Origin: a virus | Taxonomy: Duplodnaviria > Caudoviricetes | IMG/VR virus record: IMGVR_UViG_3300046777_000773 | Location: 1 to 60,347 of that record | Strand: one strand, 5' to 3' | DNA length: 60,347 nucleotides | In this document: one piece after another, positions 5,768 to 24,882 of the stretch | How the letters are laid out: every line of letters starts with the position of its first letter | Position numbering within the stretch: the stretch's first letter is position 1 | Notes under the pieces: generated by a model | Databases searched by the model: none | Seen by the model: the letters and a program-made list of their open reading frames with translations, nothing else | Told to the model about the DNA's origin: nothing | Translations under genes and position numbers: made by a program

Positions 5768-8700
5768 ATGTCAGACAGCTTTTTCAATAACCCTATCGTA
5801 ATGTGGGACGGTCAAGGTAAGACGGCTTCGGATGAAGACACTGTCTACACGATGGGTGGCCTGGATAGCTTGCCTGACGATCAGGGCGACCAAGACGTAG
5901 CTGACTACCTAAGCCGGGCTATTCCAAACATCTCCTTCGACCAATTCACCGGGAGCCTGAACCAGCTTTCTCAGCTATTCCCCGGCGTCCAAGTAAAGCC
6001 TAACTATCAGCCGGGCCTGACCGACATTACCTATACGCGCGGCTACTATGGGACGGCCCCTGACGTTTCACCCGAAGAATATGGTACGAAGTCTGCCGGT
6101 CACCTCTTCTGGTCTCCTCAACGCTACCAGCTTCCCACGGTCGCCCAAACCACCACGACAACCTCGGCGACTTCATCGGGCGTCAGTGAAGAGCAGAACC
6201 TTGAGAACGCGCTTCAGGCTTTCCTTGAAAGCATGTCGTCTGTTGCGCCCGTAACGCCGGTCACTTCTGTTCGGCCCACGACGACCACTACGGCTATATT
6301 CCCGACGACCACTACCACGGCAGTAACGACGCTCACCGATTCGACTGTGACTGCGGTTACCACCACAACAGCAACCTTACCGACCACTACAACGGCAGTC
6401 ATCCCGACAACTACCACAGCAGTTGTAACGGCTTCCACTACTGCCCCCACGACTACTACTGCGACGGTTCCTACTACTGTTACTACTTCTTTGCCAACCA
6501 TGACGGACGACGAAGCATTCGTCAATAAGGTCTACCAAGATTTATTTGAACGTGACGCTGACGCAGGCGGGCTCGACTATTGGACTTCGCAACTTGAGTC
6601 TGGCAAGACCCGCGAGCAAATCATCAAGGACATCTACTCGGGCGCTCAAGGTGCAGACATCGGCGCGCTCCAAGATGAAAATCTGAACCAGTACATTGAA
6701 GACTACGAAGCTTCTCAAGTACCGGAAGCAGAACGCTCTTCGCTCAATCAAATCTACCAGCAGAACTTCGGGCGAGACATCGACAAGGGCGGGCTGGTCT
6801 ACTGGTCCAAAGAATATGACGCGGGCAAGACCCCCGAGCAAATTCGCCAAGCTATTCTTAACGGGGCTCAGGAAGCTGACCGCGCCTACATGCGTACCCG
6901 TTCCCTTGAAGGTTTTACGGCAGACCTGAACAATCAAGTTACGCAGCAGACTGCCACCATTAATACAACGCAAGATGAAGTCAAGGCACTCCGTGATCAA
7001 GCCCAACAAGAAATCAATGACAGCTATTATGTAACATCTGGTTACGAGGGTGCCCAAGAAACTGGTTACGGCATCACTGATCCATACAAGACGACGGTCG
7101 GCGAACAACTGCGTGCGAAGGAAGCTGAACTCACAAATGAACTACGGGACCTTCGCAACACCACTACCAAGCTGAACGACGCCGAGAAGAATTTCGCAGC
7201 CGAAAGCTACAAGGCTAACAACCCGGATGCGGCTGCCTCTAATCTTGATCCGTTCACGCATTTCCTGATCTATGGTCGCGGCGAACAGCCCAGCAATTTC
7301 GTCATGGATGCAGACGCTTACTACCTTGAGCGCAACCCTGACGTAGCCAACTCGGGCCTCGATCCTTACGAACACTATCTGCTTCGTGGCTTTACCGAAG
7401 GGCGTTCTGACGTATATGGCACACCCGAACAAGAGTATCTGCGTGCTTACCCGGATGTTGCTGCCGCTATCCGTGAAGGCCGTTACACATCCGCTGAAGA
7501 TCACTACAAGCGAGTAGGTGCTGCCGAGGGTCGTACCGCTGGTTACGGTCAAGTAGACAACGCCCTCAAGACTGCCACCAACGAATACCTCGAAGAACTC
7601 AAAACATCTTTGCGGCAACCGGGTATTATTGCTGGTCCTCCTCCCCTCTCCACAATCCGTGACAACTTCATCGAGAAGCTCGCTAAAGATTCACCCGGCA
7701 TCCTAAACGCCGTCTCCAAAACCTCTACGGCAATGGAGGGCGCTTCCAGCATTTACAAGGCGGCTGCCAACTCTGCATTGCTTTCGTCTACTTCGGATGC
7801 GTTTGTGCGGGCCGCTGGGTTTGCCAGTAAAGATGCCGCTATTGACGCTCTTATTAACCGCGCTGGCTACACTCCTACCCTAGCGGCAGACCTTGTCAAT
7901 AGTGCTGGTGCTGTTCCTGATGCGGCTGAAGCCCTACTCAACGTCTCAAAATTTGCAGGCAACGATGCTGCCTATGAAGAACTTCTGAGTTCAGTCGACC
8001 AATCTTCTAAGCTTCTGTCGGCCATCGACACTGGGACTATGGCAGATGTCCAAGAAGTTCTTGGGAGCATGCAGGAGTTTGCAGGGGCGGGCAAGGCTTT
8101 CTTCACGGATGCAACTAACGCAGTTGGTCAGTATCTGGGTGTCGAAGGTCTTGGTACCATGGTCGACGGTGCCCTTTCCAGCGGCGTTCCCTATGTCGGC
8201 TTGATTATGGATGCCTTCTCGGCAGACGATTATGACGAGTTTGCTTCCACCGCCGCCGATACCCTAGCAACGGCAGCCGTTACTCAAGCCGCTTCCTATG
8301 CTCTTGCTTCCCTTGGTATCCCTGGCGCCGGTCCTTTCATTGCTGCCGCCATTGCCTTGGATGCCGTCCTTGCAGAAGCTCTAGGCTACGACAGTTTCAT
8401 TCAGGATGCAATCTCTTGGGTCTCCGGTCCCATCGACAACTTCCTAGGCTGGGCTGGCGAAAACATCGGCGACATTTGGAGCGGCATCCAAGATTTCTTC
8501 AGTGATCTCTTTGCCGAGGGTGGGTTGGTTGACTTGCCAGGCGATTCCATGTATAATGCCAACACGCAAGGGGTTCTGCCTGATATCGAAGCTTATGCCC
8601 AGGGCGGGGTCATTCCGTTACCGGGCGGCGGCAAAATTGCCAAGGGACCCGGTGGCGGCCTCGATGACCTGATCCCCACCACGATTGACGGGCGACGGGC

Positions 8701-8890
8701 GGCGGCCCTCTCTGATGGCGAGTTCGTCATTCCCGCTGACGTGGTTTCCATGATGGGCGATGGCTCCACCAACGCAGGTTCGAAGCGCCTTTACGATCTG
8801 GTGCGTCAAGTCCGCCAAGCCAAGACCGGCACCTCCCGTCAAGCGGGTCCGCTACAGGTAGGCAAGATTCTCGAAAGGACTATGAAATGA
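5768..8890 (+). CDS. Large multidomain internal virion protein: Thr-rich tract, two DUF4214-like repeats, NPDV repeats, C-terminal AxGG/GPG-LSDGEFV domain
   Basis: FVNKVYQDLFERDADAGGLDYW; YLERNPDVA..GLDPYEHYL..G..EGR; GPGGGLDDLIP...LSDGEFVIPADVV; upstream TGCTATAAT and AAGGA. Confidence 0.7.
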   Translation: MSDSFFNNPIVMWDGQGKTASDEDTVYTMGGLDSLPDDQGDQDVADYLSRAIPNISFDQFTGSLNQLSQLFPGVQVKPNYQPGLTDITYTRGYYGTAPDVSPEEYGTKSAGHLFWSPQRYQLPTVAQTTTTTSATSSGVSEEQNLENALQAFLESMSSVAPVTPVTSVRPTTTTTAIFPTTTTTAVTTLTDSTVTAVTTTTATLPTTTTAVIPTTTTAVVTASTTAPTTTTATVPTTVTTSLPTMTDDEAFVNKVYQDLFERDADAGGLDYWTSQLESGKTREQIIKDIYSGAQGADIGALQDENLNQYIEDYEASQVPEAERSSLNQIYQQNFGRDIDKGGLVYWSKEYDAGKTPEQIRQAILNGAQEADRAYMRTRSLEGFTADLNNQVTQQTATINTTQDEVKALRDQAQQEINDSYYVTSGYEGAQETGYGITDPYKTTVGEQLRAKEAELTNELRDLRNTTTKLNDAEKNFAAESYKANNPDAAASNLDPFTHFLIYGRGEQPSNFVMDADAYYLERNPDVANSGLDPYEHYLLRGFTEGRSDVYGTPEQEYLRAYPDVAAAIREGRYTSAEDHYKRVGAAEGRTAGYGQVDNALKTATNEYLEELKTSLRQPGIIAGPPPLSTIRDNFIEKLAKDSPGILNAVSKTSTAMEGASSIYKAAANSALLSSTSDAFVRAAGFASKDAAIDALINRAGYTPTLAADLVNSAGAVPDAAEALLNVSKFAGNDAAYEELLSSVDQSSKLLSAIDTGTMADVQEVLGSMQEFAGAGKAFFTDATNAVGQYLGVEGLGTMVDGALSSGVPYVGLIMDAFSADDYDEFASTAADTLATAAVTQAASYALASLGIPGAGPFIAAAIALDAVLAEALGYDSFIQDAISWVSGPIDNFLGWAGENIGDIWSGIQDFFSDLFAEGGLVDLPGDSMYNANTQGVLPDIEAYAQGGVIPLPGGGKIAKGPGGGLDDLIPTTIDGRRAAALSDGEFVIPADVVSMMGDGSTNAGSKRLYDLVRQVRQAKTGTSRQAGPLQVGKILERTMK
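8529..8557 (+). promoter_or_regulatory. Sigma70-type promoter inside a CDS
   Basis: TTGACT-N17-TATAAT. Confidence 0.6.
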
Positions 8891-9900: not shown

Positions 9901-10800
9901 ATGGCTGAACCTTCCCAAGATCCCCTCGGTCCCCTCCGCGCATTGCTTCAGCAATTCACGGGCGGTGGTGGAATGGCTGCCCCTCGGCAAGGACCCGCTC
10001 CAGCGCCTGCACAGCAAGCTGCTCCCGCTCCGACGGTTCCCGCTGTTACGGCTGGATCTGCCAGTGCCACGCCTCCTCCTGAACGAACCCTCCTTGAAAG
10101 GTTGCGTGAGTCCGTAGCGGAGACTGCGACGCCGAGCATGAGTTCCGCTGATAGCTTGGCGGCATTTGCTGCGGGCATGGGCGGTCCTCGGCGCCAAGGC
10201 TTTGTACAAGATTTGCTCGCGGGCATCCAGGCTCAGAACCAATTCGAAGCTGGGCGGCGCGGCGAAATGCGTCAGTCCATCGAAGCTCAAGCTCGCCTCG
10301 CCGAACAAGAACGCAAAGCCGCAATGGAGAAGGCCAAGTTCGCTGAAGAAACTACGCCGGGCACTCTCACGGGCCGCCTTACCGAAGCACGTATCCGCCA
10401 AGCTGATGCTGCTGCTGCCCAAGCCGGTAGGCCAAATCTTCAAATCGTAGGTACGGACGAAGCCACCGGATATGCGATTGCTATGGACCCTAGAACCGGG
10501 GAAACACGCGTATTGTCTGGCGTTCGCCCCACTCGTTCTGAAATAGCAGCCAATGCCGCCGAAGAACGCATTCGTGGACGGGCTTTGTCAAATGCGGCTA
10601 GGGCTGTCGACGAAGAAATGAAATTGAATCCTACGCTTAATCGTGAAAATCGCATCCGCCAATTGTTCCCTGTCTACTTAGAGTTGGCTCGCAGCGAAGA
10701 AAGGGCTGCGTCAGGTGGTGGTGGTGGTAGTCGTTTACCCACTGCTCCTACTGAATCAAATCCTCCTCCGCAACGTATGCAATATCAGCCGCCCCGCTAA
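9901..10800 (+). CDS. Internal virion / ejection protein
   Basis: Helical Ala/Gln-rich; between two ejection-like genes. Confidence 0.55.
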   Translation: MAEPSQDPLGPLRALLQQFTGGGGMAAPRQGPAPAPAQQAAPAPTVPAVTAGSASATPPPERTLLERLRESVAETATPSMSSADSLAAFAAGMGGPRRQGFVQDLLAGIQAQNQFEAGRRGEMRQSIEAQARLAEQERKAAMEKAKFAEETTPGTLTGRLTEARIRQADAAAAQAGRPNLQIVGTDEATGYAIAMDPRTGETRVLSGVRPTRSEIAANAAEERIRGRALSNAARAVDEEMKLNPTLNRENRIRQLFPVYLELARSEERAASGGGGGSRLPTAPTESNPPPQRMQYQPPR

Positions 10801-13800
10801 TGAGTGGTAATTTTGAATTTGAACTGCCTGACGGGCGCGTAATTCTAGTAGAGGGTGCGCCCTCAGCAGAAGCCGCCAAAGAGTTCATGGATGCCCAGTG
10901 GCCTACATTGCGCCGCCAGACGCCTATCCGTGGTTTTGGTGGTAGTGCCAATGAACAATTCTGGAGCCAGCTTGCTGGATTGCCGGGCGCTGCTGAAGCC
11001 GTTGCTGCTGCGGTCAATGCCCCCGAAGCCCGTGACTATCTACGCAGTGTCAGCGAAGGTATCAATGTACCAAATGACCCGCGCACCCGTCCTCCCGAAC
11101 TAAGTGATCTTGTAAGCAGCCGTGCCGTCGCCGCTGTCAAAGCTTACGCAGGGCAAGCTGCCGGGTCAATCGCAGGCATGGTCCCCGGTGCTGTCGCTGG
11201 CGCTGGTGCTGGTTTTCTTGTAGGTGGTCCTGCCGGGGCGGCGGCTGGTGCGCGTATTGCAGCAGGCGGTCAAGCTGCCTTAAGCGGTGTCAGTGAACTT
11301 TATCGCGGCCTCGTTGATGAGGGCGTTGATCCCACCGTTGCAGGCCGCATTGCTATTCCAGTGGGCGCAGCCATCAGCCGTATCGAAAACCGCTATGTCG
11401 AACAGGCCCTTGCTCGCTCGCTTGGTGGTCAGGTATCACAGGACGCAATCGGTCGCCTTGCCCAACGAGTTGTAGGCGGACGTGCGGGTGGCATTCGTCA
11501 AACTGCCGTGGGCGGCGCTGCTTCTGAAATGGCCGGTGAAGCTCTCCGTGAAACAACGCGCGGCGTAGTAACTGGTGAAGCCAATCTACCCGAGCGTCTT
11601 TCGCGCGTAGCTGAAGCAGGCATCGTCGGTACGCTCGGCGGCGCAGGCGTCGGTGCAGCTACACGCATGGCAGGTGGTGCGCCGCCCTCTATTCCAGAAG
11701 GCCAACAAGCCACCCCCGCGCAACCTACAGTTGAACAGGAGCCCGCGCCTACAACCGAAGCCGCGCCCGCGCCGGAAGCTGTTGCACCCGAAGTTGCGCC
11801 TGCACCTGCACCCGCATCGACGCCCGAAGCCGTAGCGCCCACACCTACACCTACGCCCGCGACTGCTGTTCAGCCAGAAGTAACACAGGCCCCCGTCACG
11901 GAAGCTGCCGCTCCTGCACCCGAGGCTCCCCCTCAAACTACACGGGAAGCCGCACCCGCGACTGGTGAAACGGCGGGGCCCGGTATCATTGCCAATCGCC
12001 ATATCGGTAACGTCATTACAGAAATGACCGCCGACGGCTTTACGACAGCGAAGGGCAGCACCTACCAGATCAACGAACAAGGCCAAACTATCCGCACGAA
12101 GTTGTCGCCGGGCAGAGGCCAAGGTACTACTTACGAACCACACAATGCCCTCTATGTGACACCTCAAGATTCTCTTGACTTGCTGACAGATATGCAGGGT
12201 GGCGGCAAGTACCGCTTTGTCGTCAATACTCCCAACGGCCCGCAAGTGTTGGGTCCTGATGAAGTTATCGGAGATCGCCAAGCCGCTATTGCAGTATTCA
12301 ATCCAAGCGGCAGTTTCGATAGGTTCATCAACGCAGAAAAGACGCCTGCCGTTGGCTTGGCTCCAGTTGAATTGCGCTACGATACTGGCCAGACCGAAGC
12401 TGCACCCGCACCCGCACCCGAAGCCGCTGCACCCGCACCTGCGCCTCAGATTACGCCTGAGCAAGAGCAGGGACTCTGGAGGGGCTACAGCCTGAACGCC
12501 GGGCCGGAAGCGCAGAGCCCTATCGTCCAGGCTGCCCGTGATGTTGCGAGCCAGCGTCAACGCCCCTTCACGCGGCCTGAATTTGCTGAGTTCGCGAATG
12601 CTGTTGCAAGTGCCCCTACCCCCGACGCACAGCAGGCAGTGTTACAGAATTACAGCGCACTGCGCCAAGCTCCTACTGCCGACCAAGTCACTCCTGCTGA
12701 AGCCGTCGGTGCGCCGCGCGGTACGCCACAGATGACAGAGCCCGAACGGCAACAAATCAAGGAGCAGATTGACGAGCCTATCATCGGGTCCGTGTTAAAT
12801 TTCTTTGCTTCGCCCATCCTGACTTTGACTAGATTGTCGCGGGCATTCGCGCCGGTACGTACAGCCTTCATGAAATTTACAGCACTGGACAACTTCTATA
12901 AGACAGCGGCGGCAGCTTCTCACAAATCCTTGAACAGCCTAAGCGACGCTTCCAAGCAGAAAGTTATCTTGGGACTGGACAGAGCCCGCCGCGAACGCAA
13001 AGAAATAAACCAAGCAGATTATACTGCTGAAGAACTGAATGCTATCCGTGACTTCCGTTCGCACATGAATTTCATTTACAACAATGCCATTGAAGCGGTA
13101 GCACGCAAGTACTTTGACCCGGCGCTTGCGACTGATCCTGCTCAACGCACCAAGCTGCAAGCCCTGCAAGACAAGCATATGGGCAAGTTCCTTACTGAGA
13201 TTCCAGCGGCAGAACTCAACGCCGTATCGCCTGAAGGAAGCGCGCTTGTAGAAAAGTACAAGGCTGCTCGCGACCCGTTCTTCTTCCCGCAGCGCACATC
13301 AGGTTCCCACTTTGTTGCTGCTTACGAACGCTTGCCGAACGGCAAAAAGAAGTTGGTTGCCCTCTACGGTTACAATCCGTTACGCCCGTGGCAGCGCGCC
13401 CGTGGTTTTGAAAACCCTGAGACTACAGCGATCCGCAAGCTGCGTGAAGAATTTCCTGACGCTAACACCCACTACGTCATGACATCTGGCGTCAAGTTCA
13501 AAAACGACGAGCAGGCTTTCAACTTGAAGCGTGACGGGGATTTCATCAACAAGTACCTCGATAGCTTGCGGGATGTCAGCGGCAAGGAAGGTCGCGAGAT
13601 TATTGACCGCATGTCAGCAGAAATCAAGAAGGCTAACATAGACTCTTTGTTCAAGCCTTACAATGGTATCTTGCGTGCAGTTACACCCGAGAACGCCGTG
13701 GAGTATGCCAGCAACTATTTGCCTGCGTATTACTTGACGGCGGGTCGTCTCAACGCGCGGCTCTACAGCCAAGAAGATTTCGACCAAGCATTCAAGCCGC

Positions 13801-15968
13801 TACGCCCCGAGAACCGCGAACTATTTGAGGGTGTTCTGGCTAACGGAACCGCGCCCGTCGAAGCTTACGGTACGGCACAGACCTTCGTATTCTTTCAGTA
13901 TCTTGGGTTTGCCTTAGATACTGCGGCAGTTAGCGGCCTGCAAATTCCCACCTCAGTGGCGCCTCGCCTAGGACGCGATGGTGGTGTCGCACGTGGATCA
14001 AAGTATTTAACTGAGGCACTGGCCGACTCTCTTTTTGACAAGGCTATTTTCAGCGTCCTCAAGTCTGACCAAGCTTATGCCAAAGCCATCGCCGATAAGC
14101 AAATCCGCAAAGACGAAGCTGACGCTTTGAGGCGCGCTATCCAGCGGGGTGTCTTTGTTCCCACATCGGCTTTCCGTATGCAAGGTAGCGTTTCGGCTGC
14201 TGATGTGCGGGCTGCTGGTATAGCCGACAAGGACGCCGTCAAGTTTGCCAATGGCGTCAACACCGTCGTGGATCTAGCCGGGCGCCCTCTTGCAGCCATC
14301 GAAGAGTTCGGGCGCTCCAGCACATTCATGGCTGCCTATCGGATGGCGCGCGACAATCCAAGCGTAATCGAGCAAGCCAATCGCTATGACAATACCAACT
14401 ACAAGAACGCCGAAGATTATGCGGCAGGTGTAGTATTCGACACTTGGTACACGGGGTCTAGGCTAGACGATCCGGGTTTCCTTCGGCAATTCCCTATCCT
14501 TAATTTGGCTACGCAGTTCATGCGCCCGGTCTTTAAATTTACTGAGACGGTATTGCGCGATGCCACCAAAACTCTGAAAGCTATGGCAGCACGCGACTTG
14601 ACTATGGCTCGCATTGGTGCTATATCTGTGTTCGGCTCCCTAGCTCCGCTTGTTTTATTGGGCGGCATTTGGGCGCTTCCGTTTGCTGACCTTAGTCGCG
14701 AACTGCTTGAGCGCATGCTTAAGACGTTCTTTGACAATCCGTTGGATCTGCGCCTAGAACTGGACCGCGCGATGGGCGGTGGCTACCTGGGCGAGGCTGC
14801 AAACTATGGCTTGCCTTCCGCCTCTAATATCGCCAACCTCTCTAAGCGTATTGCCGTCGACCCGGTTCCCTCCGACACCCTGTTCAGTTGGAGTACGCTT
14901 GCGCTCTTTGGGCCGGGCGGCGATCTGCTCCAGCGCATTCCCAAAACGTATGAGCATTGGAAGCGCGGCGAATACTGGGAAGCTGCGGCTTCCTTCCCCT
15001 TCACTCCGCGCGTAGCTGGCAATGCGATCAAAGGCACGCAGCTTGCTGTTGCCGAAGAGCAATTCACTCAGGCCGGTACACGCTTCATAACGCCCGAACT
15101 GCTAGAGCGTGTGGACAGCAGGCTTGCTGTGCCTTCCAGCGTACGTCAGGCTCTCGGCTTCCCGGCTCCTGAACTAGCCAATGAGCGTGAGTTGTATCGT
15201 CGCCAAAAGGTCATCGACGACGCTACTGATGAAGCCACTAAGTCCATTAACATGGAACTGTCTCGGTTCTACTTGCGCGCTATAGAAGCCCAACGGAACG
15301 GCAACATGGATGAAGCTTACCGGCAGGTTGCTGCTTTGCAAAAGCGTTATGTAGAATTTATTGCCGAACAGCAATCAAAACCCCTCCATCTGCGGGTGAT
15401 TCCTAATATAGACTCGGCACGTGAGCGCGCTCGGCAAGACTTGTTTGGTCGCAGTAGTAATCAAATCCTTCTTGAGGAAACGCGCCGCCAAGCTCGCCCT
15501 GCCCTGCTGCCAATCCTCGAAGAGATGCGTTGGCGCGACCGTCCCGGCTTCGCCGAAGGCGGTGAGGTGCGAGGCGAAGAGAGGTTTCCAGTTAGGCAGC
15601 CATATGAAAGTGAACTGGAGTTTTTTGAAAAGAACCCGAATGTCACGGGTATGGCTGCCGAGGATGGCAAGGTAATCCTGAATCCCTATTCAGATCTATC
15701 GGAACAAGAACGGGAAGCAGTGGTTCTCAATGAACGGGCTAGGCTGGCGATTCGTGAAGGTCTCGTCCCGCCTCCTAACTTTGTGCTGACCCCTGAGCAA
15801 ATGGCAGTCTTTAGCCGTATCAACAATGGGCGCCCTTATGGCAATCCTCAAGTCATTAAGGAAACCTTAGCAGCCCGTATACTGTCAGGTGATCCGTCTG
15901 CTCAAAAGCCTACCCGCGCTCAATTAGAATACGTAGAAGAGTTGCGCCAGGCTCTTAGCGCGCCTTAA
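10800..15968 (+). CDS. Very large internal virion (ejection, polyvalent-like) protein
   Basis: 1722 aa; Gly/Ala hydrophobic N-region, Pro/Ala/Glu linkers, helical body, C-terminal domain after FAEGG. Confidence 0.7.
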   Translation: MSGNFEFELPDGRVILVEGAPSAEAAKEFMDAQWPTLRRQTPIRGFGGSANEQFWSQLAGLPGAAEAVAAAVNAPEARDYLRSVSEGINVPNDPRTRPPELSDLVSSRAVAAVKAYAGQAAGSIAGMVPGAVAGAGAGFLVGGPAGAAAGARIAAGGQAALSGVSELYRGLVDEGVDPTVAGRIAIPVGAAISRIENRYVEQALARSLGGQVSQDAIGRLAQRVVGGRAGGIRQTAVGGAASEMAGEALRETTRGVVTGEANLPERLSRVAEAGIVGTLGGAGVGAATRMAGGAPPSIPEGQQATPAQPTVEQEPAPTTEAAPAPEAVAPEVAPAPAPASTPEAVAPTPTPTPATAVQPEVTQAPVTEAAAPAPEAPPQTTREAAPATGETAGPGIIANRHIGNVITEMTADGFTTAKGSTYQINEQGQTIRTKLSPGRGQGTTYEPHNALYVTPQDSLDLLTDMQGGGKYRFVVNTPNGPQVLGPDEVIGDRQAAIAVFNPSGSFDRFINAEKTPAVGLAPVELRYDTGQTEAAPAPAPEAAAPAPAPQITPEQEQGLWRGYSLNAGPEAQSPIVQAARDVASQRQRPFTRPEFAEFANAVASAPTPDAQQAVLQNYSALRQAPTADQVTPAEAVGAPRGTPQMTEPERQQIKEQIDEPIIGSVLNFFASPILTLTRLSRAFAPVRTAFMKFTALDNFYKTAAAASHKSLNSLSDASKQKVILGLDRARRERKEINQADYTAEELNAIRDFRSHMNFIYNNAIEAVARKYFDPALATDPAQRTKLQALQDKHMGKFLTEIPAAELNAVSPEGSALVEKYKAARDPFFFPQRTSGSHFVAAYERLPNGKKKLVALYGYNPLRPWQRARGFENPETTAIRKLREEFPDANTHYVMTSGVKFKNDEQAFNLKRDGDFINKYLDSLRDVSGKEGREIIDRMSAEIKKANIDSLFKPYNGILRAVTPENAVEYASNYLPAYYLTAGRLNARLYSQEDFDQAFKPLRPENRELFEGVLANGTAPVEAYGTAQTFVFFQYLGFALDTAAVSGLQIPTSVAPRLGRDGGVARGSKYLTEALADSLFDKAIFSVLKSDQAYAKAIADKQIRKDEADALRRAIQRGVFVPTSAFRMQGSVSAADVRAAGIADKDAVKFANGVNTVVDLAGRPLAAIEEFGRSSTFMAAYRMARDNPSVIEQANRYDNTNYKNAEDYAAGVVFDTWYTGSRLDDPGFLRQFPILNLATQFMRPVFKFTETVLRDATKTLKAMAARDLTMARIGAISVFGSLAPLVLLGGIWALPFADLSRELLERMLKTFFDNPLDLRLELDRAMGGGYLGEAANYGLPSASNIANLSKRIAVDPVPSDTLFSWSTLALFGPGGDLLQRIPKTYEHWKRGEYWEAAASFPFTPRVAGNAIKGTQLAVAEEQFTQAGTRFITPELLERVDSRLAVPSSVRQALGFPAPELANERELYRRQKVIDDATDEATKSINMELSRFYLRAIEAQRNGNMDEAYRQVAALQKRYVEFIAEQQSKPLHLRVIPNIDSARERARQDLFGRSSNQILLEETRRQARPALLPILEEMRWRDRPGFAEGGEVRGEERFPVRQPYESELEFFEKNPNVTGMAAEDGKVILNPYSDLSEQEREAVVLNERARLAIREGLVPPPNFVLTPEQMAVFSRINNGRPYGNPQVIKETLAARILSGDPSAQKPTRAQLEYVEELRQALSAP

Positions 15969-19085: not shown

Positions 19086-19329
19086 ATCGTTTTGCGATGT
19101 TGGCTGCGGAGGCGGGTTGCTTTGAGAATTGCTTGCCCGCTTTCGTGGCTTTCTTTTTGGCAGCGGACGAAGCAGCATACGTACTAGCTGGCATAGCCTT
19201 GATCGCAGCTTCTGGAAGGTATCTCTCACCTGTAGCCTCCGGTCCCTGAGTTGACGGCTTACCAGACTTGGTTCGCCATTTCTGTTTTGTCCAATCTACT
19301 AGCGATTGTTGAGTTTTCTTAAGTGCCAT
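19078..19329 (-). CDS. Conserved small basic phage protein
   Basis: QQSLVDWTKQKWRTKSGKPS...GERYLPE. Confidence 0.7.
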   Translation of the reverse strand: MALKKTQQSLVDWTKQKWRTKSGKPSTQGPEATGERYLPEAAIKAMPASTYAASSAAKKKATKAGKQFSKQPASAANIAKRFR

Positions 19330-19783: not shown

Positions 19784-19943
19784 GAGCTTTATATTCCTTA
19801 GCTAACATAGCCGCTTTTCTGGCGCTCCACTGCCCCGGACGCCCACCTTTCCCGCCAGCTTTGATCTCTTCAAAGAGAGACTTCCGCATGCCGGGTTTGG
19901 TGTAGACGCCCGCTTCGTTTACGCGTGAAGGCGTTTTAGCCAC
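19761..19943 (-). CDS. Conserved small basic phage protein
   Basis: YTKPGMRK...GGRPGQWSARKA.MLAKEYK..GGGY. Confidence 0.7.
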   Translation of the reverse strand: MAKTPSRVNEAGVYTKPGMRKSLFEEIKAGGKGGRPGQWSARKAAMLAKEYKARGGGYRS

Positions 19944-20088
19944 GCTTCATCAGGCAACCGCCCGCCTTCTTACACGCCGCTGGATTGGGGCAGCCCTTGC
20001 AGGGGACCATGCCGCCCTTCTGCATCTTCACGGCCTTCTTCTTGGCGGGCGGTTGACTTACTTGCTTACTGAAGTTGGAGCGCATCAT
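19936..20088 (-). CDS. 50-aa basic Cys4 peptide with GG motif (not in ORF track)
   Basis: Translated by hand: MMRSNFSKQVSQPPAKKKAVKMQKGGMVPCKGCPNPAACKKAGGCLMKRG. Confidence 0.65.
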   Translation of the reverse strand: MMRSNFSKQVSQPPAKKKAVKMQKGGMVPCKGCPNPAACKKAGGCLMKRG

Positions 20089-20093
20089 AACCA

Positions 20094-20267
20094 CTACTTC
20101 CTCCGCTCATATTGTTTGGACTGTTCTATCATCTTGGCGTATTCTTCGGGAGCTTCCCGCTGCATGGTAGTCTGCATCAAGGTAACCATCTTGATTAATT
20201 CTTGTAGACCCTGAAGCTGCTCTTCAGTGGGCTTACTGAATGGGCGATCCTTGGGAGCTTTAGCCAT
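20094..20267 (-). CDS. 57-aa hypothetical protein (not in ORF track)
   Basis: TAATG coupling; MAKAPKDRPFSKPTEEQLQGLQELIK...ERRK. Confidence 0.6.
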   Translation of the reverse strand: MAKAPKDRPFSKPTEEQLQGLQELIKMVTLMQTTMQREAPEEYAKMIEQSKQYERRK

Positions 20268-20947
20268 TACTTCTTGCGTCCTTTCGCCATCGGCTTTGCA
20301 GCCACACGACCGCCCGCCTTCTTCATGACCGGCTTGCCCATCGGCTTCGCTGCCACCTTGCCACCGGCCTTCTTGGCTACCGGCTTGGCTGCAACCTTAC
20401 CACCCGCTGCCTTCTTGACGACGCCGCCCTTCTTCATGATAGCGCCGGGCATGCCACCAATGTTTGGCCTAGCTCCTGTTGCACTACCCGGCATACCCGG
20501 ACGCGGCACCGGATTCATGCCGCCAGGGCCAATGGGTTGGGCATCAACTGTAAATGGATTGGGGGTGCGCCCGCCGCCAATAGGACGCCCCTGTCCGCCA
20601 GTTCCTATCGGAGAGCCGTCGGGGTTGCGACCCGGAAGCGGGTTTACTGGCGAGTAAATTTTAGGATCGTAATCAACGGCACCGCCACCGCGCGTAAATA
20701 TAGGTTGGCCAGTAGTCGGAAGCGGCATTGGACGCCCTTGACCGCCAGTTCCTGCGGGGGCACCGCCCGGCATCCGGTCAACCGTAAATGGATTGGGGGT
20801 GCGACCGGGAAGCGGCATTGGACGTCCGGGCCGTGCGGGCTGTGGCACCGGGCTAGGCAGCGGTTGTGGTCTTTGCATGCGTTGACGTTCGGCATTATCA
20901 TAAGCCGCTTGCTGCTCAGGAGTTAGATTAACGGGACGACTTACCAT
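20267..20947 (-). CDS. Pro/Gly-rich repeat protein with histone-like Lys/Ala tail
   Basis: Repeats GRTPNPFTVD, GTGGQGRP, GRPMPLP; KKAGGKVAAKP repeats. Confidence 0.7.
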   Translation of the reverse strand: MVSRPVNLTPEQQAAYDNAERQRMQRPQPLPSPVPQPARPGRPMPLPGRTPNPFTVDRMPGGAPAGTGGQGRPMPLPTTGQPIFTRGGGAVDYDPKIYSPVNPLPGRNPDGSPIGTGGQGRPIGGGRTPNPFTVDAQPIGPGGMNPVPRPGMPGSATGARPNIGGMPGAIMKKGGVVKKAAGGKVAAKPVAKKAGGKVAAKPMGKPVMKKAGGRVAAKPMAKGRKK

Positions 20948-20948
20948 G

Positions 20949-21971
20949 TTACTTACCTTTCATCTTAGATAGAGTCTGTGCAAAGCGGGCGCGTTGGCCC
21001 AGCTTACCGGGAGCCTTGGCGGCAGTCGCCAGCTTCTTGGCGGGGATCTTGGCACCGGCCTTGACGCCGAGTTGGGCACGCAATGCACCCGGCTTCTTGA
21101 TGGCCTGCTGAATGAACTTCTTGTTGGTGACTCCACCCTTGGCCATCTTCTTTACGGGAGCCTTGGGTTTCACCATGCCGCCTTTCTTGTAGCCATTGTC
21201 TTCAACGCGGGTAGGATCACGCTGTTGACCAATGCGGGCACCTTCTCTTTCTAGCGCCTTCTCAAAAACTCGTTGAGACCGCTGCGCCGATGCGACGCGA
21301 CCCCTGCGCGCAGTTTCAGTTTCCGCTGCTTCTCTTGCTAGGCGTTCGGGACCACCAGCACCAGGGCCTCGCGTTACCTTTTTAAGATTCAGCATTGCCT
21401 GCTCTGATCGCAAACTGGCGGGCTTATTTTCTTCTTCCATTTCTTTGGCGGCACGAAGCGCCTTTAAGTATTGGTTGTATGTTAGACCAACAGGCCCACG
21501 CTCTTCGGGGCGGTCAGAGTTGTCAACTTCGCCACCCTGAGCATACTTCCGTATCCGGCCACCCTTCTTGTAGTCTTCGGACTCCATCTCGTCATCTTCC
21601 ATCATGGAGCCGTCGGGCATCTTGTGCTTGCCTTTGCCGCCGACTTTGATTTCGATTTCGACCATGCCGCCGCCTTCGTACTTCTTCACGGGACCGCCTT
21701 TCTTGAGGCGTGTGGGTTCCTTTTGCTTCTCGCGGACACGGTTCATGTATTCGAAGTTGTGCGGCGCCATCATGTCTTCGCTACCAACAACGTAGTCAGT
21801 GTCATTGCTACGCTGGAAGGGCACACGCGCCAAGGGGTCCATGGGCCGACGCTCGTTTAGGATTTCGTCTTCGGTCTTGCCACGAGGCATGCGCCTTGGC
21901 GCTGTCCGTGCAGGCGGGGTAGGAGGAAGCGGGAGCGGCTCGCCCCTGCGTTTCGGTTCTTGTGCCATTAC
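20949..21971 (-). CDS. Basic low-complexity protein with six GG motifs
   Basis: LKKGG, YEGGG, YKKGG, YAQGG, YKKGG, MAKGG; C-terminal FIQQAIKKPGALRAQLG..ARFAQTL; start taken as ATG near 21968-21971, uncertain. Confidence 0.65.
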   Translation of the reverse strand, partial: VMAQEPKRRGEPLPLPPTPPARTAPRRMPRGKTEDEILNERRPMDPLARVPFQRSNDTDYVVGSEDMMAPHNFEYMNRVREKQKEPTRLKKGGPVKKYEGGGMVEIEIKVGGKGKHKMPDGSMMEDDEMESEDYKKGGRIRKYAQGGEVDNSDRPEERGPVGLTYNQYLKALRAAKEMEEENKPASLRSEQAMLNLKKVTRGPGAGGPERLAREAAETETARRGRVASAQRSQRVFEKALEREGARIGQQRDPTRVEDNGYKKGGMVKPKAPVKKMAKGGVTNKKFIQQAIKKPGALRAQLGVKAGAKIPAKKLATAAKAPGKLGQRARFAQTLSKMKGK

Positions 21972-22660
21972 TTGCACCCCTTCGCCATGCCACCCTTGGC
22001 ATACATCGCACGACCACCACCCATCATCTTCTTGGGCTTGGAAGTCATGCCACCCTTCATCATCTTCTTGGGCGCGACCTTACCGCCCGACTTCATCTTC
22101 TTGGCTTTCACCATACCACCCTTTTGATAGGCAATGCCCATGCGGTCTGCAATGCGCTTCTCAGTTTCAGTTACCGGCTTCTCGCCCCGTGTCAGGCGCA
22201 GCACAATCTCGTTCAGGTCTTCAGCCGCAGAACGGGAAGCTGCACGGGGACGATTGCTTTCAGATGCCCGACGATTTAGATTGGCACGCATTTCACTCGT
22301 AGTTTCTTCGTACGGCTGAGGCGGCAAATCAGGTAACTCAGTAGGTGAAGGAGCCGCTCGTTGAGGAGCCGGTGCGGAGCGCCGACCAGCAAGACGTTCG
22401 CCGACGGGCTGATTGGTGATTGCGGAACCACGGTTGCGGCGGCGTTCCATCAGCATACGTTCTTCTTCGTCGAACCGGGGCGCAGCCTCCTCGGCCATGC
22501 GAGCGCGGTCTTCCTGGCGACGCTGACCACCACCGGGTGCGGGCGGACCTTGCGTCGAAGGTCTACGCTGGAACATGCGCCGAAGCGCAGCGCCAACAGG
22601 CTCATTGGAAATTCCTGATCTGGCTTCCCCGCCCTCTTGGAACTTGGCTACGCGTTTCAT
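21968..22660 (-). CDS. Basic low-complexity protein with six GG motifs
   Basis: FQEGG, YQKGG, MKSGG, MMKGG, MMGGG, YAKGG. Confidence 0.7.
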   Translation of the reverse strand: MKRVAKFQEGGEARSGISNEPVGAALRRMFQRRPSTQGPPAPGGGQRRQEDRARMAEEAAPRFDEEERMLMERRRNRGSAITNQPVGERLAGRRSAPAPQRAAPSPTELPDLPPQPYEETTSEMRANLNRRASESNRPRAASRSAAEDLNEIVLRLTRGEKPVTETEKRIADRMGIAYQKGGMVKAKKMKSGGKVAPKKMMKGGMTSKPKKMMGGGRAMYAKGGMAKGCK

Positions 22661-23196
22661 TTCTTACGTCCTTTCTTGGAAGATACTTTGCCGCCACGGC
22701 GCAGGTTAGCGCGATCCATTTTAGGTGGCTTGGTTACGTCAATTTCTTCGGGCACAAACTTCATGCGAGGGCGGGTCTTGCGGACCTGCTGTGCAGTCTC
22801 TTCGGGCTGCGAAGGGTAGTTTGTCTGGGGAGCAACACGCTCGATCTCGCGGAGACGTGGCTTCTCAGGATCGTAGACGCCTGTGCTTTCGCTTTCACTT
22901 TCGCGTTCCTTGTCAGCCTTGGCACGCGCCTTGGCTTTCATTTCCTTGGCGAACTGCTGCTCATAGCTGACACCCGGCTCAACGAGATAGTTGGTAAACT
23001 CATTGATGGAGCCGCCCGCCGCGAACTTCTTGGGCTTGCCCGCTTGGCGCAGGGCGATGGCCACGGCTTGCTTGACGGCGGCCTTCTTATTGGGAGGCTT
23101 CGAAGTACCGATACGCCCTGACTTCGAGTAGTCGTCGACCAGGGTACGGATGTTCGAGCTTATGGTCTTTTGGGACTTGCCCTTCTTGAGTGGCAT
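22657..23196 (-). CDS. Basic protein (MPLKKGKSQKTISSNI type) with two GG motifs
   Basis: Conserved-looking N-terminus KQAVAIAL; FAAGGSI, LRRGGKV; GAGG RBS before ATG 23196. Confidence 0.7.
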   Translation of the reverse strand: MPLKKGKSQKTISSNIRTLVDDYSKSGRIGTSKPPNKKAAVKQAVAIALRQAGKPKKFAAGGSINEFTNYLVEPGVSYEQQFAKEMKAKARAKADKERESESESTGVYDPEKPRLREIERVAPQTNYPSQPEETAQQVRKTRPRMKFVPEEIDVTKPPKMDRANLRRGGKVSSKKGRKK

Positions 23197-23207
23197 ATCA
23201 AGATCCT

Positions 23208-23666
23208 CTAATTGAGAAGCAAGCACTCGGCCTGCCTCCGACGTACGAGACCCGGTAGAACACGGCCACCGCCTTTGGTCCACTTCATGAGTTCATCTTG
23301 GGCGCCTTCCCAATCCTGCTCATCAATGCGGCGACGCAGCGTACTGGAACGGTAACGAGGGACACCCAGATTGTAGGCGAAGTCAGTGATGGCACCGAGT
23401 ACCTTGGGGTTGGCAGCTAAATGGGGAGAGGCGCGCAGCACACCAGCCATGTAGGTAGAGACCAGTTCGCCGACTAGCCATTCTTCGGCGGTCTCTTTGG
23501 TGATAGGCGGATCATCCATTGTGACCTTGGTGCCGTCGGGCTTGTTGACTGTGCCGTAGCCAATGGTCGGGTAGCCTGCCGGGCAGATGTAAGGCGTGAG
23601 CCGCAAACCTTCGAAGGTCCGACACAATTGGGCAGCTACCTCGGTGGCTTCAGCGATTGCGCTCAT
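23208..23666 (-). CDS. Endolysin, GH24 lysozyme
   Basis: FEGLRLTPYICPAGYPTIGYG, DFAYNLG, GLVRRRQAE. Confidence 0.9.
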   Translation of the reverse strand: MSAIAEATEVAAQLCRTFEGLRLTPYICPAGYPTIGYGTVNKPDGTKVTMDDPPITKETAEEWLVGELVSTYMAGVLRASPHLAANPKVLGAITDFAYNLGVPRYRSSTLRRRIDEQDWEGAQDELMKWTKGGGRVLPGLVRRRQAECLLLN

Positions 23667-24117
23667 AGACGCGACCCACAAACCAGAAGCTAATGACCAT
23701 GTTGAAGACAGCTAGGTCCTCGGAGTTCCACATGTTGACCAGCACATCTTTCCAGTCACCGCCCTGCTGAATAGCAATCATGTAGGCAGCGATCTTGACG
23801 GCGGCATAAAGACCCAAGAAAGCGTAGGTGACAGTAGGCCGGACCAGCGCAGAAAACGCAGCCACAAACTTACCAGCAGCCTTGGAGGTGGACGACTGTT
23901 CCTTAAAGGCTTCAGCCATCGTATCCATTTCGGCCATGGTCATAGTAGCTTCGGTCTGACGCATAGCTATTTCGCCACGGACCCGAGCAAACTCCATCTC
24001 AGCATTGAGCATGGCCAATTCATGACGGCGCTCATTGCCCTTGTCGAACATCTTGAAGACTTCTGGTGCGAGCCGGAGAACACCCCCGAATACACCGCCA
24101 AGTAAAGTCTCGATCAC
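23650..24117 (-). CDS. Putative holin
   Basis: Hydrophobic helices; LVRPTVTY and ISFWFVGR; adjacent to lysozyme. Confidence 0.6.
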   Translation of the reverse strand: MIETLLGGVFGGVLRLAPEVFKMFDKGNERRHELAMLNAEMEFARVRGEIAMRQTEATMTMAEMDTMAEAFKEQSSTSKAAGKFVAAFSALVRPTVTYAFLGLYAAVKIAAYMIAIQQGGDWKDVLVNMWNSEDLAVFNMVISFWFVGRVYERNR

Positions 24118-24118
24118 G

Positions 24119-24583: not shown

Positions 24584-24592
24584 GGCACGGCC

Positions 24593-24853: not shown

Positions 24854-24882
24854 ATTATACTATAGTTAGCTTAATCTTTCAA
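24854..24882 (-). promoter_or_regulatory. Sigma70 promoter of lysis/basic-protein operon, probably leaderless
   Basis: TTGAAA-N17-TATAAT, then 6 nt to ATG 24847. Confidence 0.7.

What the first reader, a model, noticed from the sequence alone, without database searches (positions are those of the whole stretch)
19936..23196. A shared hydrophobic-x-x-GG-x-hydrophobic motif in seven proteins: possible packaging or processing signal
Seen: five basic, low-complexity ORFs in one operon carry about 20 copies (e.g. FQEGGEA, YQKGGMV, YAKGGMA, LKKGGPV, YKKGGRI, YAQGGEV, FAAGGSI, LRRGGKV, MKKGGVV, MQKGGMV). The same motif occurs in the two large internal virion proteins (FAEGGLV ~8510, YAQGGVI ~8594, FAEGGEV ~15549). 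It often sits at the border between unrelated segments. Known: adenovirus protease cuts (M/I/L)xGG in basic core proteins, ASFV protease cuts GG|X in polyproteins, and [FY]AxGG occurs in tape-measure C-termini. Inference: the motif marks cargo for capsid loading or ejection, or is a maturation cleavage site that releases DNA-condensing or effector peptides. I recognise no dedicated protease gene.
Basis: partly seen in the sequence, partly recalled or inferred. Interest (0 to 1): 0.85.

Follow-up and report, generated by a model that had tools for sequence, protein, structure and literature searches.

The report
Gly-Gly joint motif fencing protein cassettes
A short conserved peptide containing two glycines marks the seams between swappable pieces in seven proteins of this uncultured phage, and the same kind of seam is where phage T5 cuts its tail ruler protein, so it may be a general hinge or cutting mark in proteins that phages inject.

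Summary
The window is a whole 60,347-bp podophage genome related to HTVC023P/CRP-901. Five basic ORFs (pI 10.1-11.7), co-oriented with a holin-like gene and a lysozyme gene, hold 15 strict copies of [FYML]xxGGx[VILMA]. Shuffles predict 0.5-0.6, and 0 of 2000 reach 15. A relaxed pattern finds 22 copies. The two large internal proteins carry canonical copies.

The motif is a selected joint between cassettes. In relatives the GG pairs are invariant while the flanks are hypervariable, and cassettes are gained, lost and reordered at the motif. Of 34 homologs of the 1722-aa protein, 19 end 2 residues before its motif. In 33 of 50 viral loci, similarity to the 1040-aa protein's C-terminal cassette begins at one of its two motifs.

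The mass-spectrometry-mapped maturation cut of T5 tape measure pb2 falls directly before A-E-G-G. R-A-x-G-G is kept in four diverged T5-family proteins. Lambda gpH and JBD30 tape measures have [FY]AxGG in the matching region.

No protease gene was found. Cleavage, virion packaging and the role of the five ORFs remain unshown. My verdict is a new variant of the tape-measure C-terminal processing joint, here spread over an operon of cassette strings.

The parts
22657..23196 (-). ORF o208 (179 aa from the conserved Met; the longest ORF would run to 23283). An N-terminal module like small phage proteins of phrog_2423 is followed by joint FAAGGSI (23025-23005), a hypervariable stretch, then joint LRRGGKV (22704-22684) and a basic tail.
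   Evidence: In alignment A2 of 22 sequences both GG pairs and V171 are invariant while the region between them is hypervariable with indels.
21968..22660 (-). ORF o230 (230 aa). Joint FQEGGEA lies at residues 7-13 (22642-22622). The C-terminal tail holds five more copies (22129-21983): YQKGGMV, MKSGGKV, MMKGGMT, MMGGGRA, YAKGGMA. The protein ends in GCK.
   Evidence: 42 relatives of 44-508 aa are mosaics. Of the 19 sequences I read, 17 end in the same GCK tail.
20949..21977 (-). ORF o342 (342 aa; the database gene call is 313 aa from Met30). Four cassettes (B, C, I, A) are separated by three double joints: LKKGGPV + YEGGGMV (21707-21660), YKKGGRI + YAQGGEV (21572-21525), YKKGGMV + MAKGGVT (21191-21126).
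   Evidence: In the AlphaFold2 model the joints lie in or beside low-confidence coil, and cassettes I and A are helical.
20267..20947 (-). ORF o226 (226 aa, pI 11.7). A Pro/Gly-rich body is followed by a tail with MKKGGVV (20437-20417) and three K-K/A-A-G-G-K/R-V copies (20413-20303). In relatives this tail is fused to o342-like proteins.
   Evidence: fusion seen in P0007 and in locus L003.
19936..20094 (-). ORF o52 (52 aa, four Cys) with MQKGGMV (20025-20005) and KKAGGCL (19971-19951).
   Evidence: a 57-aa counterpart lies in L003.
20094..20267 (-). ORF o57 (57 aa) inside the same gene string. It has no joint copy.
   Evidence: counterpart in L003.
5768..8890 (+). The 1040-aa internal (ejection, tape-measure-like) protein. 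Joints are FAEGGLV (8510-8530) and YAQGGVI (8594-8614). The conserved C-terminal cassette that follows contains SDGEFVIPADVV (about 8594-8887).
   Evidence: hhalign of the cassette profile against the JBD30 tape measure C-terminus gives probability 74.5%, E 2.7e-5 over 37 columns. The Caulobacter phage GB2A counterpart is annotated as a tape measure.
10800..15968 (+). The 1722-aa internal virion protein. Joint FAEGGEV (15549-15569) precedes a 139-aa C-terminal cassette (15549-15965) that is an add-on module.
   Evidence: Of 34 homologs, 19 end at query residue 1581, and 10 carry only the cassette, set in other proteins.
23208..24117 (-). Lysozyme gene (23208-23681) and holin-like membrane protein gene (23650-24117), directly upstream of the five ORFs on the same strand.
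   Evidence: Pfam Phage_lysozyme E 3.8e-33; phrog_6637 E 1.4e-36 with a weak holin hit. In relative L003 these two genes sit between the o208-like and o230-like genes.
24854..24882 (-). Promoter-like site (TTGAAA, 17-nt spacer, TATAAT; 11 of 12 matches) upstream of the gene string 24583 to 19078. No minus-strand terminator-like site lies within the string.
   Evidence: This is a consensus match only.

Best explanation
The motif is a selected short linear 'joint' lying in disordered, basic linker segments. Its consensus is (K/R)(K/R)-[Y>L,M,F]-[K/A/Q]-x-G-G-x-[V>I,A]-(K/R).

Shown:
- The joint fences small cassettes in the five operon proteins.
- It precedes the C-terminal cassettes of both large internal proteins.
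- Among relatives, cassettes are added, lost, permuted or encoded as separate small genes at these joints, while the joint itself is conserved.
- Joints often come in pairs with a polarity. A basic 'tail' flavour ([YLM]-K/R-K/R-G-G) closes the upstream cassette. A 'head' flavour ([FY]-A/Q-E/Q-G-G) opens the next cassette in about half of the pairs.
- The head flavour resembles what stands in front of the C-terminal fragment of siphophage tape measures, and in T5 the maturation cut falls inside it.

Inferred:
- In this podophage the joints are processing or hinge sites of proteins that are loaded into the virion and ejected.
- The two large proteins would shed or expose C-terminal fragments of about 97-138 aa, as T5 pb2 and lambda gpH do.
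- The five ORFs would be polyprotein-like strings of small basic cargo units.
- The cutting activity would be a host enzyme or assembly-triggered self-cleavage, because the phage shows no protease.

My odds: selected inter-cassette joint about 0.85; same kind of joint as in tape measures about 0.6; actually cut in this phage about 0.3; the five ORFs are virion cargo about 0.35.
For: Enrichment:
- 15 copies against 0.5-0.6 expected.
- In the best 120 of 165 o342 relatives, 300 copies against 16.8 expected from shuffles. These relatives were found with a motif-bearing query, so the count is not independent.

Selection:
- Both GG pairs and V171 are invariant in 22 aligned o208-family sequences while the stretch between them is hypervariable.
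- Motif codons vary.

Cassette behaviour:
- Splitting at motifs and clustering the pieces gives strings such as B*.*C*.*I*.*A (window), B*.*I*.*C*.*A, B*.*C*.*F*A, B*.*C*.*A and .*L*.*C*.*I*.*A.
- 72 of 143 internal BLAST breakpoints in the o342 family fall in joint zones that make up 27% of the protein's length.
- Cassette A exists alone as a 59-aa gene that starts at the cassette border (L004), and in HTVC027P as an 88-aa gene with one joint in front of it.

Polarity:
- Of 112 distinct double joints, 55 are basic-then-nonbasic and 9 are the reverse.
- Copies within 20 aa of a C-terminus: 86 basic, 2 nonbasic. Copies within 8 aa of an N-terminus: 24 nonbasic, 13 basic.

Large proteins:
- 19 of 34 homologs of the 1722-aa protein stop at query residue 1581, with the motif at 1584. 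Four of the 10 cassette-only homologs begin within 2 residues of 1584.
- In 33 of 50 viral loci, similarity to the 1040-aa C-terminus begins within 5 residues of F915 or Y943, behind unrelated upstream parts.

Tape-measure link:
- T5 pb2 is cut after R1127 (PMC10038345 passage), and the next residues are AEGG, in a 1219-aa protein with only five GG contexts.
- R-A-x-G-G is kept in 4 of 4 readable diverged T5-family proteins.
- Lambda gpH has FATGG at 733-737. A cut there would give 79.8 + 12.5 kDa, against the roughly 78 and 14 kDa quoted in PMC12617516.
- JBD30 has FASGG and HATGG flanking an SNDEF element.

Structure:
- In the AlphaFold2 model the joints lie in or beside low-confidence coil between helical cassettes.
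Against: - No cleavage, packaging or ejection datum exists for this phage or its relatives. The papers I searched on HTVC023P/027P and CRP-901 gave none.
- No protease family appears in 65 ORFs.
- Only one cut, in T5, is mapped to the residue. There the residue before the cut is Arg, whereas here it would be Tyr, Phe, Leu or Met.
- Many copies sit 8-12 residues apart in tails, or 4-6 residues from an N-terminus. Cutting there would release only tiny peptides.
- The breakpoint test shows no enrichment in the o230 family: 13 of 37 against a 39% zone.
- No operon cassette was found within 2.5 kb of the 50 loci that carry the ejection-protein C-terminal cassette, so nothing ties the five ORFs physically to virion proteins.
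- The genes lie in a lysis gene string, not in the head or tail module.
- The likeness to lambda's C-terminal element is weak (hhalign probability 2.3%), and the cassette profile finds no PDB sequence.
Confidence: 0.45

Rival explanations
1. Docking or 'velcro' motif. The joints are multivalent binding sites that pair with each other or with one virion component. Through them the five basic proteins and the two large proteins co-assemble into the internal core. No cutting is involved.
For: - The copies are many, tandem and set in disordered segments, as in multivalent linear motifs.
- They occur at extreme N- and C-termini, where cutting would achieve little.
- The same motif is shared by exactly the proteins expected inside the particle.
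Against: - No partner is known.
- Sipho-, myo- and podophage proteins that carry the motif share no obvious common reader.
- Monomer models give no structure for the motif.
- The T5 cut at the motif shows that at least one such site is processed.
Confidence: 0.2
2. Lysis helpers. The five polycationic proteins act with the holin-like protein and the lysozyme on the cell envelope, for example as outer-membrane disruptors standing in for missing spanins. In this reading the motif is an envelope-binding element, which would also suit tape-measure tips.
For: - The genes follow the holin-like and lysozyme genes on one strand behind one promoter-like site.
- In relative L003 the lysis genes lie between the o208-like and o230-like genes.
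- In HTVC023P small basic ORFs follow the M15 endolysin, and in HTVC027P they surround a homolog of the holin-like protein.
- I saw no lipobox or spanin-like pair in the ORFs of the region.
- A cationic phage peptide that replaces spanins is described in bioRxiv 10.1101/515445 (abstract in a search listing).
Against: - About 1,030 residues of mostly disordered protein is far more than the 56-aa disruptin type (that size is recalled, not read).
- None of the five has a signal peptide or membrane segment, judged by eye.
- Cassette A is also found fused to a GreA-family protein and to an HNH nuclease, which points to the cytoplasm and nucleic acids.
- In HTVC027P the cluster sits between the portal and GroES/scaffold genes.
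Confidence: 0.12
3. DNA-condensing or nucleic-acid-binding proteins in which the basic G-G element itself contacts nucleic acid. The function may be in the infected cell or in the capsid.
For: - pI is 10.1-11.7.
- The tails are lysine/alanine/proline-rich with repeated K-K-A-G-G-K-V units.
- Cassette A occurs fused to GreA-family and HNH proteins.
Against: - This does not explain the same motif in non-basic surroundings in the two large proteins and in tape measures.
- No known DNA-binding family is matched.
Confidence: 0.1
4. Passive flexible linker. G-G with flanking residues is merely a permissive place where insertions are tolerated, so cassettes accumulate there. There is no reader and no cut.
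For: - Cassette gain, loss and reordering at the joints.
- Disorder in the models.
Against: - A passive linker would not keep an aromatic residue three places before GG and Val or Ile two places after it. Across 298 copies the first position is Y 55%, L 16%, M 14%, F 14%, and the last is V 76%.
- It would not keep invariant GG and V among hypervariable flanks.
- It would not show a head/tail polarity.
Confidence: 0.1
5. Compositional artefact of lysine- and glycine-rich low-complexity sequence.
For: The ORFs are rich in K, G and M.
Against: 0 of 2000 shuffles reach the observed count, even when residues are shuffled only within 30-aa windows. The motif is also conserved in relatives.
Confidence: 0.01

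Closest known systems
Maturation cut of phage T5 tape measure protein pb2 (pb2 into pb2* plus pb2C; Linares et al. 2023, PMC10038345; passages read)
   Same: The cut after R1127 lies directly before A-E-G-G, and a G-E-x-G-x-E-V-V element follows. R-A-x-G-G is conserved in diverged relatives. The fragment released is 92 aa, comparable with the 97-138 aa that lie behind the joints of the two large proteins here.
   Different: T5 has Arg, not an aromatic residue, before the cut. T5 has one site, not about 20. T5 is a siphophage tail protein, whereas this phage is a podophage and most copies are in small operon proteins. No cut has been shown here.
Lambda gpH processing to gpH* and gpHC (PMC12617516; passages read). 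That paper states that how the cleavage is catalysed is unknown.
   Same: gpH has F-A-T-G-G at 733-737 and Y-A-T-G-G at 778-782 flanking an R-G-E-F-V element, inside the glycine-rich region where a fragment of about 14 kDa is removed.
   Different: The lambda cut site is not mapped to the residue. Profile similarity of the window's cassette to gpH is weak (probability 2.3%).
JBD30 tape measure C-terminus (PMC11445458; passages read)
   Same: F-A-S-G-G, then G-T-G-T-S-D-S-I-P and S-N-D-E-F, then H-A-T-G-G. This is the same order of elements as in the 1040-aa protein here, and hhalign gives probability 74.5%.
   Different: The authors propose, by prediction only, a cut at residue 1066, which is not at either motif. 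Nothing has been measured.
GG-type maturation sites of adenovirus protease and ASFV pS273R
   Same: A Gly-Gly pair with a nearby hydrophobic residue in basic core proteins or polyproteins.
   Different: The register differs (hydrophobic residue three, not two, places before GG). No cysteine protease of those families is in the genome. The one mapped phage cut lies before A-x-G-G, not after GG.
Cassette-bearing tape measures noted earlier in this scan (e1-5966203, e1-6052916; AI notes)
   Same: Short glycine motifs fence inserted modules, and relatives gain or lose modules at the motifs.
   Different: Those cases lie inside single giant tape measures. Here the cassettes are spread over five small genes of a podophage, as well as the two large proteins.

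Membership tests
Tape-measure C-terminal processing joint (T5 pb2 type) | A-x-G-G immediately after the cut position, preceded by Arg or an aromatic residue | tested here: met
   FAEGG (two copies) and YAQGG in the large proteins; YAQGG, FAAGG, YAKGG and FQEGG in the operon. T5 family: R-A-x-G-G in 5 of 5 readable sequences.
Tape-measure C-terminal processing joint (T5 pb2 type) | The joint lies roughly 90-140 residues from the C-terminus of an ejected protein | tested here: met
   125 and 97 aa (1040-aa protein) and 138 aa (1722-aa protein), against 92 aa in T5 and 120 aa in lambda if it is cut at F733. This does not apply to most operon copies.
Tape-measure C-terminal processing joint (T5 pb2 type) | The joint is followed by a G-E-x-x-x-V type element (T5 GEHGTEVV, lambda RGEFV, JBD30 NDEFM) | tested here: inconclusive
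   Met in the 1040-aa protein (SDGEFVIPADVV). Absent behind the 1722-aa joint and in all five operon ORFs.
Tape-measure C-terminal processing joint (T5 pb2 type) | The protein is actually cleaved at the joint in virions | not testable with these tools
   Needs virion mass spectrometry. No proteome of this phage group was found in the papers searched.
Adenain / ASFV-type GG|X maturation site | A hydrophobic M/I/L residue two places before G-G (recalled consensus) | tested here: not met
   Only 2 of the 22 relaxed copies (MMKGG, MMGGG) fit. In the others that place holds K, A, Q, E or R.
Adenain / ASFV-type GG|X maturation site | A cognate cysteine protease encoded by the virus | tested here: not met
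   No peptidase family among 65 ORFs in Pfam. The ORFs between portal and capsid give no protease match in Pfam or among PDB sequences.
Double-glycine leader peptides (peptidase-containing ABC transporter substrates) | A single N-terminal leader ending in G-G, plus a C39-peptidase transporter | tested here: not met
   Copies are internal and multiple. No C39 or ABC exporter gene was found.
T4-type capsid targeting sequence (recalled) | A short N-terminal leader removed by the prohead protease | tested here: inconclusive
   o230 and several relatives start with four to six residues followed by F-Q-E-G-G. There is no prohead protease and no evidence of removal.
Disruptin-type lysis peptide | A small cationic protein encoded with holin and endolysin in a spanin-less phage | tested here: inconclusive
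   Position and charge fit. Size and disorder do not. No sequence comparison with the described peptide was made.

The most novel reading that the evidence does not exclude
A common processing code for proteins that tailed phages eject. In this reading the joint ([R/F/Y]-A/K-x-G-G-x-[V/I]) is the site at which tape measures of siphophages and internal proteins of podophages are cut without a phage protease. This phage group would extend the code to an operon of polyproteins, which are chopped into a cocktail of small basic helical or metal-binding peptides delivered with the DNA. The code would also explain why new cassettes can be plugged in at the joints.
Probability: 0.22. Interest if true: 0.85.

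Novelty: new variant of a known kind. Interest (0 to 1): 0.62.

Why it matters
Only the tape measures of T5 and lambda are known to be cut in the particle, and how the lambda cut is catalysed is stated to be unknown (PMC12617516). Here the single residue-mapped cut, in T5, coincides with a conserved A-x-G-G joint. The same joint recurs in lambda and JBD30, in two podophage internal proteins and about 20 times in five small genes. That makes the old question directly testable by mutating the joint in T5 or lambda.

It also gives a simple sequence mark for predicting the processed C-terminal fragments of ejection proteins in uncultured phages. It identifies a set of fast-evolving, swappable cassettes that may be injected cargo. 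Two full-text searches found no paper describing the motif.

Tried and rejected
- Pfam, including E up to 10, gave no family for any of the five ORFs. PHROGs matched only the N-terminal 21 residues of o208.
- Foldseek of the o342 model against PDB gave nothing at E <= 0.001.
- The ESM Atlas placed cassette A only among unnamed viral clusters of 67-89 aa.
- AlphaFold2 of o342 (mean pLDDT 63) and of the 1040-aa C-terminal cassette (mean pLDDT 55.7) gave no structure for the motif. The idea that it is a fixed beta element of a fold therefore found no support, but it is not excluded.
- Co-folding the 1040-aa C-terminus with the o342 junction region returned 'no answer' (score 0.00, below the mark). 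This says nothing either way.
- PDB sequence searches with the 1040-aa C-terminus and with its profile found nothing meaningful.
- Protease hunt: the 333-aa ORF after GroES is acidic and coiled-coil-like, so it looks like a scaffold. The 163- and 196-aa ORFs before the capsid gene gave no matches.
- The link from operon cassettes to virion proteins failed: BLAST of 213 family proteins against all frames of 50 loci gave no hit.
- The breakpoint test was negative for the o230 family.
- The DNA search of the region against phage records returned only a 163-bp match to Methylophilales phage MEP402.
- Close-relative locus search for o342 gave only 2 loci.
- Papers on HTVC027P, CRP-901 and HTVC023P-type phages held nothing on these genes in the passages searched. 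Their supplementary tables were not opened.
- One T5-family hit (L061) could not be read in any frame and was dropped.
- I considered recombination at repeated DNA as the cause of shuffling and set it aside, because the motif codons differ.

Full report
What the window is. The window is the whole record of 60,347 bases, one contig. The capsid gene runs across the two ends of the contig, so the assembly is circularly closed or permuted. Pfam and PHROGs show a tailed phage with small and large terminase subunits, a portal, a GroES-like co-chaperonin, a Mu gpT-like capsid protein, an SU10-type adaptor, a split family-A DNA polymerase and a ribonucleotide reductase. By portal tblastn the nearest named phages are Roseobacter phages CRP-901/902 and Pelagibacter phages HTVC027P/HTVC023P at 32-36% identity. 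Caulobacter and Planktothrix podophages follow.

The observation. The minus strand carries, in order: an ORF with an N-terminal membrane segment (24119-24583), a holin-like gene (23650-24117), a lysozyme gene (23208-23681), the ORFs I call o208, o230, o342, o226, o57 and o52, a phrog_17747 gene, an endonuclease VII gene and a phrog_14910 gene. A promoter-like site (11 of 12 matches) lies at 24882-24854. No minus-strand terminator-like site interrupts the string.

The strict regex finds 15 copies in o208, o230, o342, o226 and o52. Shuffles predict 0.47 (whole protein) or 0.64 (within 30-aa windows), and 0 of 2000 shuffles reach 15. A relaxed pattern finds 22 copies. The other 47 ORFs hold 13 copies against about 5 expected, and 10 of the 13 lie in structural or portal genes. 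The canonical copies FAEGGLV, YAQGGVI and FAEGGEV are at 8510, 8594 and 15549. The ORFs have pI 10.1-11.7. Motif codons differ from copy to copy. Third-position differences dominate in comparison with a related contig. The frames are therefore coding, and selection acts on the peptide.

The motif is a conserved joint between exchangeable cassettes. The best 120 of 165 relatives of o342 hold 300 strict copies against 16.8 expected. This set was recruited with a motif-bearing query, so the count is not independent. Across 298 copies the residue frequencies are: first position Y 55%, L 16%, M 14%, F 14%; then K/A/Q; then K/E/A; then G; then G; then any residue; then V 76%, I 11%, A 9%. Basic residues lie on both sides.

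Cutting each protein at its motifs and clustering the 383 pieces of 14 aa or more gives cassette strings. The window protein reads B*.*C*.*I*.*A. Relatives read B*.*I*.*C*.*A, B*.*C*.*F*A, B*.*C*.*A.*L*.*C*.*I*.*A and .*K*.*C*.*F*A, where a star is a motif and a dot a short spacer. In the o342 family, 72 of 143 internal BLAST breakpoints fall within joint zones that cover 27% of the protein. In the o230 family the same test is negative, with 13 of 37 against a 39% zone.

I aligned o208 with 21 of its 50 other hits. Both G-G pairs and the following Val are invariant. The region between them is hypervariable, with indels and inserted extra double joints. The 42 relatives of o230 range from 44 to 508 aa, and 17 of the 19 I read end in the same motif-rich tail.

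The same cassettes occur as separate small genes in other phages. HTVC027P has small basic ORFs, several carrying joint-like copies, between its portal and GroES genes. HTVC023P has such ORFs after its M15 endolysin. Contig L004 encodes cassette A alone as a 59-aa gene that starts at the cassette border.

Double joints have a polarity. Of 112 distinct pairs, 55 are basic-then-nonbasic and 9 are the reverse. Copies near C-termini are basic in 86 cases against 2 nonbasic. Copies near N-termini are more often of the [FY]-A/Q-E-G-G kind, 24 against 13. In the AlphaFold2 model of o342, built on a 47-row alignment with mean pLDDT 63, the joints lie in or beside low-confidence coil. Cassettes I and A are helical.

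The two large proteins show the same behaviour. Among 34 homologs of the last 243 residues of the 1722-aa protein, 5 run through to the end. Nineteen stop at query residue 1581, two residues before F1584. Ten carry only the 139-aa C-terminal cassette, placed inside other proteins, two of which have cell-wall hydrolase domains. Four of those ten alignments begin within two residues of F1584. One homolog has, in front of the cassette, a stretch much like the T5 cut region: G-R-A-E-G-G, and soon after it G-E-K-G-P-E-V-V.

For the 1040-aa protein I retrieved 50 viral loci encoding relatives of its last 396 residues. In 10 of them similarity begins at query residues 266-273 (F915 is 271). In 23 it begins at 296-301 (Y943 is 299). 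In 11 it begins much further upstream, in 1 at 281, and in 5 weak ones at 311-320. The parts upstream of the joint are unrelated, and the host ORFs range from 160 to 1097 aa. The cassette itself is strongly conserved, with 25 invariant columns in 28 sequences.

Link to tape measures. Lambda gpH has F-A-T-G-G at 733-737 and Y-A-T-G-G at 778-782 around an R-G-E-F-V element. The JBD30 tape measure has F-A-S-G-G, then S-D-S-I-P and S-N-D-E-F, then H-A-T-G-G. The profile of the window's cassette aligns to the JBD30 C-terminus with probability 74.5% (E 2.7e-5, 37 columns), but to lambda only weakly (probability 2.3%). It finds no PDB sequence. The Caulobacter phage GB2A counterpart is annotated as a tape measure.

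The key point concerns T5. Linares et al. located the pb2 maturation cut after R1127 by mass spectrometry (PMC10038345, passage read). In the T5 sequence the residues after R1127 are A-E-G-G, followed by G-E-H-G-T-E-V-V, and the 1219-aa protein has only five G-G contexts. Four diverged T5-family tape measures at 37-70% identity all keep R-A-x-G-G there, while the flanks drift. A fifth hit could not be read.

For lambda, PMC12617516 (passages read) says three things. [quoted passage not shown] Only T5 and lambda tape measures are known to be cut. How the cut is catalysed is unknown. A cut before A734 would give 79.8 and 12.5 kDa, close to the quoted figures of about 78 and 14 kDa. For JBD30 a cut at residue 1066 has only been predicted, and that position is not at a motif.

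What this means. Shown: the motif is real, selected at the peptide level, and marks cassette borders in three independent protein families of this phage. The same type of joint stands at the one residue-mapped tape-measure cut. Inferred: the joints here are processing or hinge sites of ejected proteins, and the five ORFs are strings of small cargo units.

Several facts count against the inference.
- The genome shows no protease family among 65 ORFs. The ORFs between portal and capsid look like scaffold-type proteins or give no match.
- The residue before the T5 cut is Arg, not an aromatic residue.
- Many copies are too close together, or too near a terminus, for cutting to release anything useful.
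- Nothing links the operon cassettes to virion proteins.
- The genes lie within a lysis gene string. In relative L003 the holin-like and lysozyme genes even sit between two of them.

The rivals therefore remain open: a multivalent docking motif, lysis helpers of the cationic-peptide kind (bioRxiv 10.1101/515445, abstract seen), nucleic-acid binding, or a merely permissive linker. The last fits poorly with the conserved aromatic and Val positions and with the polarity.

Comparison with the known, and novelty. The adenovirus/ASFV analogy fails on register and on the absence of a protease. The joint does not fit double-glycine leaders or the T4 targeting leader either. The closest known thing is the C-terminal processing region of tape measures.

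Earlier notes of this scan (e1-5966203, e1-6052916) reported glycine motifs fencing cassettes inside giant tape measures and pointed to lambda. I re-derived the lambda motif myself. New here are the exact T5 coincidence, its conservation in relatives, the truncation pattern in the 1722-aa family, the start-of-homology pattern in 50 loci, and the head/tail polarity.

Two full-text searches found no paper describing the motif. The library lacks most subscription journals, so this is not proof of absence.

I rate the finding a new variant of a known kind. Interest is 0.62: the motif is certain, its mechanism is open, and a simple experiment in T5 or lambda would test it.

Noticed in passing
window 25632-26168 (-): This ORF carries the N-terminal domain of dATP/dGTP diphosphohydrolase (Pfam dGTP_diPhyd_N, E 8e-30). 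I recall that family from phages that replace adenine in their DNA. No PurZ-like gene was looked for.
   Followed up: no
window 16771-18915 (+): The 714-aa protein at the end of the structural block combines a methyltransferase domain with an MptE-like (Maf-type) domain. It may be a virion-protein or sugar-modifying enzyme.
   Followed up: no
window 21663-21580 (-), cassette C of o342, and relatives: This is a Met/His/Asp-rich cassette (K-H-K-M-P-D-G-S-M-M followed by an acidic run). Together with the Met-rich tails and the Cys-bearing ends (GCK; four Cys in o52), it suggests metal binding. The cassette recurs in many relatives.
   Followed up: no
proteins P0042, P0066, P0100: The helical basic cassette A (K-K-P-G-A-L-R..., G-K-L-G-Q-R-A-R-F) is also found fused to a GreA-family protein, an HNH nuclease and a NeuB-family protein. 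Atlas neighbours are unnamed viral proteins of 67-89 aa.
   Followed up: partly
loci L019-L057: A highly conserved C-terminal cassette of about 95 aa (G-P-G-G-G-L-D-D-L-I-P, S-D-G-E-F-V-I-P-A-D-V-V-S-M-M-G-D-G-S, K-T-G-T) ends very different proteins of 160-1097 aa, many with Gly/Asp-rich low-complexity bodies. It looks like a shared anchoring or address module of ejected proteins.
   Followed up: partly
window 23000-24900 (-): No spanin-like pair or lipobox ORF is evident next to the holin-like and lysozyme genes. The first gene of the string (24119-24583) has an N-terminal membrane segment and no family match.
   Followed up: partly
window 59462-60347 joined to 1-85 (+): The major capsid gene (323 aa) is split by the ends of the contig, so the record is a complete circularly permuted or circularly assembled genome.
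   Followed up: yes
window 27594-29015 and 29340-30284 (-): The family-A DNA polymerase domain and a weak 3'-5' exonuclease match lie in two separate ORFs about 300 bp apart.
   Followed up: no
window 19761-19943 and 19078-19329 (-): Two further small basic genes at the end of the string belong to PHROG families of unknown function (phrog_17747, phrog_14910). They have G-G runs but no joint of the described form.
   Followed up: no
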